Part shown: positions 15,592 to 15,619 of the stretch, one piece after another
How the letters are laid out: each line of letters opens with the position of its first letter
Numbering within the stretch: position 1 is the first letter of the stretch
The notes under the pieces: generated by a model
Seen by the model: the letters and a program-made list of their open reading frames with translations, nothing else
Told to the model about the DNA's origin: nothing
Database searches by the model: none
Assembly: GCF_988243305.1 (NCBI RefSeq)
Contig: NZ_OZ547136.1
Length of the DNA: 64,000 nucleotides
Reading direction: 5' to 3' (one strand)
Position numbers and translations under genes: made by a program

Positions 15592-15619
15592 TTCAGGTTA
15601 CAAGTAACTGTAACCTGAA
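15592..15619 (-). other. intercistronic stem-loop after the major pilin gene
   Basis: Perfect 11-bp inverted repeat ttcaggttaca / tgtaacctgaa with a 6-nt loop, 16 bp downstream of the major subunit stop. Confidence 0.6.

What the first reader, a model, noticed from the sequence alone, without database searches (positions are those of the whole stretch)
15592..15619. Perfect 11-bp stem-loop between major pilin and chaperone genes
The inverted repeat ttcaggttaca-agtaac-tgtaacctgaa lies 16 bp after the major subunit stop. Intercistronic hairpins after the major pilin gene are a known device in pap/fim-type operons to give differential mRNA stability and excess pilin, so this suggests the operon was under expression-tuning selection before the usher was hit.
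Basis: seen in the sequence. Interest (0 to 1): 0.35.

Follow-up and report, generated by a model that had tools for sequence, protein, structure and literature searches.

The report
Conserved RNA hairpin after Auf pilin gene
A long RNA hairpin just after the main pilus-subunit gene (aufA) of the E. coli Auf fimbrial operon is real and evolutionarily maintained. It is an ordinary example of the known trick by which pilus operons make more subunit message than assembly-gene message.

Summary
The inverted repeat is real and larger than reported. It has 15 perfect base pairs (15588-15602 / 15609-15623), or 16 pairs with a UUAC loop on the minus-strand transcript. It starts 11 nt after the stop of aufA, the major subunit of the Auf chaperone-usher fimbriae (aufABCDEFG, between glgP and glpD), and lies 120 nt upstream of chaperone aufB. 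It is the longest short-loop perfect palindrome in the window, and none that long appeared in randomised windows.

All four Auf lineages I could find keep a 13-16-bp hairpin 9-14 nt after the stop: E. coli non-B2, E. coli B2, Citrobacter freundii and one metagenome contig. They differ by compensatory double changes and by G·U wobbles that pair only on the sense RNA. Loop, spacer and flanks diverge.

In 78 more distant operons, 74% have a stem of at least 9 bp after the pilin gene, against 7% of coding controls.

No Auf lineage has a U-tract after the stem, so this is not a canonical intrinsic terminator. The most likely role is a 3'-end protective or attenuating hairpin that enriches aufA mRNA. 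That role is inferred and was not measured.

It is a new member of a known kind, of low to moderate interest.

The parts
15608..15623 (-). 5' arm of the RNA hairpin on the auf (minus-strand) transcript: UAAUUUCAGGUUACAG
   Evidence: conserved in four lineages
15604..15607 (-). Loop (UUAC on the transcript). Not conserved: AAAG in the B2 allele, UUCU in L007, and a 14-nt insert with a small sub-hairpin in C. freundii
15588..15603 (-). 3' arm of the RNA hairpin: UUGUAACCUGAAAUUA. It is followed by AUAUUACA, which is not a U-tract
15635..16339 (-). aufA, major fimbrial subunit (234 aa); stop codon at 15635-15637
   Evidence: Pfam Fimbrial, E = 1.4e-21; a homologue is named Auf fimbriae major subunit AufA; CFT073 aufA/c4214 (PMC5956150)
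15515..15634 (-). 120-nt aufA-aufB spacer that holds the hairpin. It is AU-rich 3' of the stem
15555..15581 (-). Second, weaker hairpin (12 pairs, two of them G.U on the sense strand). Present only in the non-B2 allele and not conserved
15521..15525 (-). AAGGA Shine-Dalgarno of aufB. This is the second conserved island in the spacer and is not sequestered by the hairpin
14762..15514 (-). aufB, periplasmic chaperone
   Evidence: Pfam PapD_N + PapD_C
13972..14720 (-). aufC usher, N-terminal fragment (PapC_N plus the start of the Usher domain)
11330..13971 (.). Insertion that breaks aufC: IS10-type element itself interrupted by an IS3-type element, with a 9-bp overlap (target duplication) relative to the intact locus L001
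9478..11329 (-). aufC usher, C-terminal part (Usher + PapC_C)

Best explanation
The element is a cis-acting RNA stem-loop in the aufA-aufB intercistronic spacer of the aufABCDEFG polycistronic mRNA. It forms just beyond the footprint of the ribosome terminating on aufA.

**Most likely mechanism (inferred).** The hairpin acts as a 3'-end protective structure, a 'decay terminator'. Endonucleolytic cleavage, probably by RNase E, in the AU-rich single-stranded spacer downstream separates aufA from aufB-G. The 16-bp hairpin then blocks 3'-to-5' exonucleases. The monocistronic aufA message therefore outlives the assembly-gene message, and the rod subunit is made in large excess. It may add some pausing or weak attenuation of RNA polymerase.

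**Shown here.** The hairpin exists, its position is as described, it is conserved as a structure on the sense strand, and a U-tract is absent.

**Inferred.** The cleavage, the exonuclease block and the effect on the AufA:AufB ratio.
For: **(1) Structure.** 15 perfect pairs plus one G.U. dG is -19.3 kcal/mol for the 63-nt segment, z = -6. It is the longest such repeat in the window, and none that long appeared in randomised windows.

**(2) Conservation as a structure.**
- The E. coli B2 allele is about 75% identical in DNA. It keeps 27 of 32 stem positions, against 1 of 4 loop positions, 6 of 11 spacer positions and 24 of 60 positions after the stem.
- C. freundii (AufA 77-78% identical) and a metagenome lineage (70-71%) also have a 13-16-bp hairpin 9-14 nt after the stop.
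- In structural alignment A5, 95% of cells pair, 4 pairs carry changes on both sides, and sliding the partner drops pairing to 48% or less.

**(3) Strand specificity.** Every one-sided change is a G.U on the sense RNA and would be an A.C mismatch on the antisense strand. The sense fold is 3.7-6.4 kcal/mol more stable than the antisense fold in three of four lineages.

**(4) Variable spacing.** The spacing between the conserved half-cores is 8, 8, 14 and 12 nt. That fits a hairpin but not a dimeric DNA-binding site.

**(5) Generality.**
- In 78 operons whose chaperone is 33-45% identical to AufB, a pilin gene sits directly upstream of the chaperone.
- 74% of them have an uninterrupted stem of at least 9 bp within 100 nt of its stop, against 7% of coding controls.
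- Best local dG has a median of -18.2 against -13.2 kcal/mol, Mann-Whitney p = 1.6e-18.
- In an Enterobacter/Leclercia subgroup, 12 of 14 hairpin pairs show compensatory changes.

**(6) No U-tract.** None follows the stem in any Auf lineage (2-4 U in the next 8 nt), and the terminator scan does not call the site.

**(7) Read-through.** The whole operon, aufA to aufG, is co-induced by TosR in CFT073, so the hairpin is read through (PMC5956150).

**(8) Precedents.** papA mRNA has an RNase-resistant 3' structure, and there is partial termination between papA and papH. Differential decay is described for CFA/I (PMC5927463; PMC6524683).
Against: - There are no transcript 3'-end, half-life or abundance data for auf. 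The TosR paper gives fold changes only.
- Only four distinct lineages exist, so covariation statistics are weak: 22-23 of 500 shuffles reach the observed values.
- Within E. coli the arms are conserved in sequence rather than co-varying.
- The stem is AU-rich (5 G-C pairs of 16 in the window) and only moderately stable.
- Transcriptional attenuation cannot be separated from post-transcriptional protection by sequence analysis.
- RNase E sites in AU-rich RNA cannot be predicted reliably.
Confidence: 0.55

Rival explanations
1. Partial transcription terminator or attenuator, as between papA and papH. The hairpin makes a fraction of RNA polymerases stop after aufA, so fewer transcripts reach aufB-G.
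For: - The position is identical to the papA-papH partial terminator (PMC6524683).
- 55% of the hairpins of at least 9 bp found after pilin genes in related operons do carry a U-rich tail.
- The long perfect stem forms right after the stop codon.
Against: - No U-tract in any of the four Auf lineages: 2-4 U in the 8 nt after the stem.
- The site is not called by the terminator scan.
- The stem is GC-poor.
- The full operon is co-induced.
Confidence: 0.25
2. RNase III processing site. The double-stranded stem is cut, which separates aufA mRNA from the rest of the transcript.
For: - A long, perfect, bulge-free helix of 13-16 bp sits in an intercistronic spacer.
- Both arms are conserved in sequence within E. 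coli.
Against: - By general knowledge, typical E. coli RNase III substrates are about two helical turns (roughly 20 bp or more). These stems are 13-16 bp.
- In C. freundii the helix is interrupted by an internal loop.
- No data exist.
Confidence: 0.07
3. The hairpin is the structural core of a stable small RNA released from the aufA 3' region, like FimR2 from the fimA-fimI spacer. It would act in trans on other mRNAs or on CsrA.
For: - K-12 annotates sRNA FimR2 at the equivalent place of the fim operon.
- FimR2 is cut out by RNase E and contains a stem-loop (PMC9723502).
- The sequence of the Auf arms is unusually well conserved.
Against: - There is no GGA motif in the loop or in a single-stranded part.
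- The 9-14 nt upstream of the stem, which would be the seed, are not conserved between lineages.
- There is no Rfam match.
- The only similarity to FimR2 is a hexamer or octamer at chance level.
Confidence: 0.07
4. A DNA-level palindrome that serves as the binding site of a dimeric regulator or recombinase, or a chance or repeat-element palindrome.
For: - It is a perfect palindrome with conserved arm sequence in both E. coli alleles.
Against: - Half-site spacing varies: 8, 8, 14 and 12 nt.
- The substitutions are G.U-compatible only on the sense RNA, and three of four lineages are imperfect palindromes as DNA.
- It occurs once per genome, so it is not REP-like.
- The chance expectation is about 0.
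- Unrelated sequences form hairpins at the same place in other operons.
Confidence: 0.03

Closest known systems
papA-papH intercistronic terminator / 3' stabilising structure of papA mRNA (P pili, uropathogenic E. coli; Baga et al. 1985, 1988, as summarised in PMC6524683 and PMC5927463)
   Same: - A stem-loop lies directly 3' of the major subunit gene, upstream of the assembly genes.
- Its proposed purpose is to give excess pilin message relative to downstream genes.
   Different: - The pap element is described as a (partial) transcription terminator and an RNase-resistant terminator structure. The Auf hairpin has no U-tract in any lineage.
- In pap the next gene is papH, not the chaperone.
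- There is no sequence similarity.
- The pap effect was measured. For auf it was not.
Intercistronic 'decay terminator' hairpins: CFA/I cfaB (Jordi et al. 1993), puf operon (Chen et al. 1988), malE-malF REP (Newbury et al. 1987); all cited in PMC5927463
   Same: - A hairpin without an obligatory U-tract lies between cistrons.
- It is thought to stop 3'-5' exonucleases after a downstream endonucleolytic cut, so the upstream cistron is more stable.
   Different: - Those cases have half-life measurements.
- The Auf hairpin is a single-copy element, unlike REP.
- CFA/I belongs to a different (alternate) chaperone-usher class. This last point is from general knowledge and was not tested here.
FimR2 sRNA from the fimA-fimI spacer (PMC9723502)
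   Same: - It lies in the spacer immediately after the major subunit gene of a chaperone-usher operon.
- It contains a stem-loop.
- It depends on RNase E cleavage of the polycistronic transcript.
   Different: - FimR2 has a single-stranded 5' region and GGA motifs that bind CsrA. The Auf element has neither.
- The fimA-fimI spacer fold is unremarkable (z = +0.35), whereas the Auf hairpin is very strong (z = -6 to -9).
- There is no homology.
Hairpins after the pilin gene in related Enterobacterales chaperone-usher operons (this survey)
   Same: - Same position (median 21 nt after the stop) and similar size (median 10 uninterrupted pairs).
- They are maintained by compensatory changes.
   Different: - The sequences are unrelated.
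- About half carry U-rich tails and so look like true intrinsic terminators. The Auf hairpins do not.

Membership tests
Canonical intrinsic (Rho-independent) terminator | Stable, usually G+C-rich stem-loop | tested here: inconclusive
   The stem-loop is stable (16 pairs, -19.3 kcal/mol for the 63-nt segment) but AU-rich (5 G-C pairs of 16).
Canonical intrinsic (Rho-independent) terminator | Run of U directly after the stem (at least 5 U in 8 nt) | tested here: not met
   Tails are AUAUUACA, AAAUUAUU, AGCGUAUU and CAUUCAGC in the four lineages. The site is not reported by the terminator scan.
Intercistronic stabilising/attenuating hairpin after the major subunit gene of chaperone-usher operons | Located in the spacer directly 3' of the major subunit gene and 5' of the assembly genes, on the sense strand | tested here: met
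   It lies 11 nt after the aufA stop and about 70 nt before the aufB start codon. The genes were identified by Pfam and by naming.
Intercistronic stabilising/attenuating hairpin after the major subunit gene of chaperone-usher operons | Structure maintained in evolution (compensatory changes, sense-strand wobble) | tested here: met
   Four lineages, 95% of cells paired, 4 pairs with double changes, and the sense fold more stable than the antisense fold. The statistics are limited by n = 4.
Intercistronic stabilising/attenuating hairpin after the major subunit gene of chaperone-usher operons | Transcript 3' ends at the hairpin, and higher abundance or longer half-life of the subunit mRNA | not testable with these tools
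   No auf 3'-end or half-life data were found. The original auf paper is not held.
FimR2-type 3'UTR-derived sRNA | Sequence or covariance-model similarity to a described sRNA family | tested here: not met
   No Rfam match below E = 0.89 in 13800-16900. No meaningful similarity to the FimR2 sequence.
FimR2-type 3'UTR-derived sRNA | GGA motifs in the loop or single-stranded region (CsrA binding) and a conserved single-stranded seed | tested here: not met
   The loops are UUAC, AAAG, UUCU and a 14-nt insert, none with GGA. The 5' spacer is not conserved.
FimR2-type 3'UTR-derived sRNA | Discrete stable small RNA produced by RNase E | not testable with these tools
   This needs a Northern blot or small-RNA sequencing.
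REP/BIME or other dispersed palindromic repeat | Many copies per genome | tested here: not met
   Exactly one place per genome, always at the auf locus. No other copy was seen in the window.
Auf fimbrial operon (aufABCDEFG) | Seven-gene chaperone-usher cluster between glgP and glpD, with AufA as major subunit | tested here: met
   The intact locus L001 shows 7 fimbrial genes between glgP and glpD. A homologue is named AufA. CFT073 gene names are in PMC5956150. In the window the usher is split by IS elements.

The most novel reading that the evidence does not exclude
The hairpin, with a few flanking nucleotides, is released by RNase E as a stable FimR2-like small RNA from the auf transcript. 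It would act in trans, for example in cross-talk between adhesins and motility. This would explain why the arm sequence, and not only the pairing, is nearly invariant across E. coli alleles that differ by 25% elsewhere.
Probability: 0.07. Interest if true: 0.6.

Novelty: new member of a known kind. Interest (0 to 1): 0.25.

Why it matters
**Expression control.** Pilus rods need roughly a thousand major subunits for each usher or adhesin. Operons therefore need a built-in way to uncouple subunit expression from assembly-gene expression.

**What this adds for Auf.** The poorly studied Auf operon of extraintestinal E. coli carries such a device, and the device is evolutionarily maintained as an RNA structure. 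This supplies a missing piece of its expression logic.

**Practical uses.**
- It predicts where aufA transcripts should end.
- It bears on expression constructs: pBAD-auf clones include the hairpin.
- The 78-operon survey could be used to annotate this class of hairpin systematically. It also suggests two flavours, with and without a U-tract.

It does not change any concept.

Tried and rejected
- **Genome scan with an AufA alignment.** A scan of 100,044 species-representative genomes found no relative. The AufA family is narrow: only 22 proteins in the 5.8-billion-protein search, forming four lineages. Deeper covariation statistics were therefore impossible.
- **Genome scan with AufB.** This gave only distant operons, at most 45% identical. 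I used them as a class survey rather than as orthologues.
- **Rfam.** Nothing relevant matched.
- **Terminator scans.** The hairpin is not called because it lacks a U-tract.
- **Literature.**
  - The original auf paper (Buckles 2004) and the CFA/I decay paper (Jordi 1993) are not held.
  - Full-text searches for stem-loops after fimbrial subunit genes returned little.
  - The TosR RNA-seq supplement has binding-site tables but no absolute read counts, so it could not be used to compare aufA with aufB.
- **Variant allele in strain HH97.** It turned out to be a decayed or frameshifted locus with a damaged hairpin, so it is uninformative.
- **Hypotheses considered and rejected.** DNA-binding palindrome, REP-like repeat and chance (see rivals).
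- **End of the operon.** I looked for a canonical terminator after aufG for contrast. No clear one was found.

Full report
**Observation**

The sequence reported at 15592-15619 is there, but the repeat is larger than stated. The repeat finder gives two perfectly complementary 15-nt arms, 15588-15602 and 15609-15623, separated by 6 nt.

All genes here are on the minus strand. On that transcript the element folds as 16 pairs (15 Watson-Crick plus a closing G.U) around a UUAC loop. The 63-nt segment has dG -19.3 kcal/mol and z = -6.0 against dinucleotide shuffles. The whole 151-nt spacer region has z = -6.4.

It is the longest perfect short-loop inverted repeat in the 64-kb window. In 60 Markov-randomised windows the mean count was 0.13 for stems of at least 11 bp and 0 for at least 15 bp.

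**Context**

- The ORF at 15635-16339 (minus strand) is a Pfam Fimbrial protein.
- The ORF at 14762-15514 (minus strand) is a PapD_N + PapD_C chaperone.
- The ORFs at 13968-14720 and 9478-11385 are the two halves of an usher.

Comparison with E. coli genomes shows a seven-gene chaperone-usher cluster between glgP and glpD. A database homologue is named 'Auf fimbriae major fimbrial subunit AufA'. The CFT073 literature names the genes aufABCDEFG, with aufA (c4214) as major subunit, aufB as chaperone and aufC as usher (PMC5956150).

In the window aufC is interrupted between 11329 and 13972 by an IS10-type element that itself carries an IS3-type element. A 9-bp overlap relative to the intact locus marks the target duplication.

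The hairpin starts 11 nt after the aufA stop. It lies in the only long spacer of the operon (120 nt); the other junctions are 41 nt or less, or overlap. It does not touch the aufB Shine-Dalgarno (AAGGA, 15521-15525).

**Is it selected?**

E. coli carries two auf alleles at this chromosomal site. One is at least 95% identical to the window (228 genomes). The other is about 75% identical, for example in ATCC 25922 and PMV-1 (556 genomes).

Identity between the two alleles, by segment:

| Segment | Identical positions |
|---|---|
| aufA 3' coding end | 38 of 46 |
| Spacer between stop and stem | 6 of 11 |
| Hairpin arms | 27 of 32 |
| Loop | 1 of 4 |
| After the stem | 24 of 60, with an 18-nt indel |
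| aufB ribosome-binding region | 22 of 27 |

The stem is therefore an island of conservation.

The 5.8-billion-protein search found only two further AufA lineages: Citrobacter freundii (77-78% identical) and a metagenome contig (70-71%). Both have a hairpin at the same place:

- C. freundii: GUUUCGGGUUGCG...UGCAACCCGAAAU.
- Metagenome contig L007: AUUCAGGUUGCAAAU-UUCU-AUUUGUAACCUGAAU.

Relative to the window, C. freundii has two A-U to G-C double changes, L007 has one U-A to A-U flip, and the B2 allele has a U-A to C-G change at the foot.

The formal count on structural alignment A5 gives 95% of cells paired, 4 pairs with changes on both sides, and at most 48% pairing when the partner is slid by 1-3 columns. 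With only four sequences the shuffle control is weak: 22-23 of 500 shuffles reach the observed values.

Two further observations point to RNA rather than DNA:

- Every one-sided change is a G.U on the sense transcript and would be an A.C mismatch on the other strand. The sense fold is 3.7-6.4 kcal/mol more stable than the antisense fold in three of four lineages.
- The distance between the conserved half-cores varies (8, 8, 14 and 12 nt). A hairpin tolerates this, but a dimeric DNA-binding protein would not.

The sequence occurs exactly once per genome, always here. It is therefore not a dispersed repeat.

**Generality**

A scan of species-representative genomes with the AufB alignment returned 80 operons whose chaperone is 33-45% identical to AufB. 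In 78 of them the gene directly upstream of the chaperone ends with a typical fimbrial-subunit C-terminus.

| Measure, within 100 nt after the pilin stop | Operons | Coding controls |
|---|---|---|
| Uninterrupted stem of at least 9 bp | 74% | 7% |
| Uninterrupted stem of at least 13 bp | 28% | 0.3% |
| Median best local dG (kcal/mol) | -18.2 | -13.2 |

The dG difference has Mann-Whitney p = 1.6e-18. The stems start a median of 21 nt after the stop.

In a subgroup of twelve Enterobacter, Leclercia and Lelliottia loci, RNAalifold finds a 14-pair hairpin 13 nt after the stop, and 12 of its 14 pairs show compensatory changes.

The Auf hairpin is therefore one instance of a widespread, structurally selected device with no shared sequence.

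**Mechanism**

Among the survey hairpins of at least 9 bp, 55% are followed by a U-rich tail and look like intrinsic terminators, while 24% have 3 or fewer U in 8 nt. All four Auf lineages fall in or near the tail-less group: AUAUUACA, AAAUUAUU, AGCGUAUU and CAUUCAGC. The terminator scan does not call the site. The operon is induced as a whole by TosR (log2 fold change 2.6-6.6 for aufA to aufG), so polymerase reads through.

From established knowledge of E. coli transcription and mRNA decay, a hairpin without a U-tract terminates poorly but is an effective block to PNPase and RNase II. I therefore favour a 'decay terminator' role. An endonucleolytic cut in the AU-rich spacer, followed by 3'-exonuclease trimming back to the hairpin, would leave a stable aufA message.

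This is the logic described for papA, for CFA/I, and for puf and malEFG (PMC5927463). In pap it is combined with partial termination between papA and papH (PMC6524683).

The cleavage, the protection and the effect on protein ratios are inferred. Nothing here measures RNA.

Rival mechanisms are:

- a weak attenuator (0.25);
- an RNase III site (0.07; the stems are shorter than typical substrates);
- a FimR2-like sRNA (0.07);
- a DNA-level site or chance (0.03 or less).

**The FimR2 lead**

When I fetched the K-12 fim operon for comparison, the fimA-fimI spacer turned out to carry an annotated sRNA, FimR2. According to PMC9723502, RNase E cuts it from the fim polycistron and it binds CsrA through GGA motifs.

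The Auf element sits at the analogous place, but it differs in several ways:

- It has no GGA in a loop or single-stranded segment.
- It has no conserved single-stranded seed.
- It has no Rfam hit and no real similarity to FimR2.

This remains the most novel reading not excluded. It could explain why the arm sequence itself is so well conserved within E. coli, but it has little support.

**Verdict**

- The element is a new member of a long-known kind of regulatory feature, so interest is low to moderate.

Noticed in passing
window 11330-13971 (within aufC, 9478-14720): The usher gene is split by an IS10-type element (transposase ORF 11437-12654, truncated). That element is itself interrupted by an IS3-type element (orfA 13423-13749, orfB 12536-13426). 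A 9-bp overlap relative to the intact locus marks the target duplication.
   Followed up: partly
window 15555-15581: A second, weaker hairpin lies in the same spacer (12 pairs, two of them G.U on the sense strand). It is present only in the non-B2 auf allele. In the B2 allele the region is diverged or partly deleted, and it is absent in C. freundii.
   Followed up: partly
L093 775-809 (E. coli K-12 fimA-fimI spacer): RefSeq annotates the sRNA FimR2 in the spacer after the type 1 pilin gene. This is a precedent that such spacers can yield trans-acting RNAs. Its fold is unremarkable (z = +0.35), unlike the Auf hairpin.
   Followed up: partly
L028, L044, L045, L049, L053, L059, L060, L072, L075, L076, L079, L084 (about 13-50 nt after the pilin stop): A related Enterobacter/Leclercia/Lelliottia operon family has a 14-bp hairpin with a conserved lower stem (GAGAUAUU/AAUAUCUC) and a freely co-varying upper stem. 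12 of its 14 pairs show compensatory changes. Providencia and Proteus loci show a similar conserved AAGGUUUAAA...UUAAACCUU hairpin.
   Followed up: partly
L001 vs L002 (glgP-glpD interval): Two auf alleles only about 75% identical in DNA occupy the same chromosomal site in E. coli (228 and 556 of 5426 genomes), and most genomes lack the operon. This suggests old allelic divergence or replacement by recombination.
   Followed up: no
L092 (strain UID2309220036) and L094 (strain HH97): These are further decay states of the locus. In L092, auf is replaced by an IS1 element and a 260-bp remnant next to glgP. In L094, aufA and aufB are frameshifted and the hairpin has lost bases.
   Followed up: partly
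L003 (Citrobacter freundii CP057863.1): The Auf-like operon of C. freundii lies next to ABC-transporter genes, not next to glgP. The cluster is therefore mobile between chromosomal contexts, and the hairpin travels with it.
   Followed up: no
window 15635-16339: AufA is long for a major subunit (234 aa). The Pfam Fimbrial domain covers only residues 62-233, which leaves an N-terminal segment of about 35 residues after the signal peptide with no domain match.
   Followed up: no
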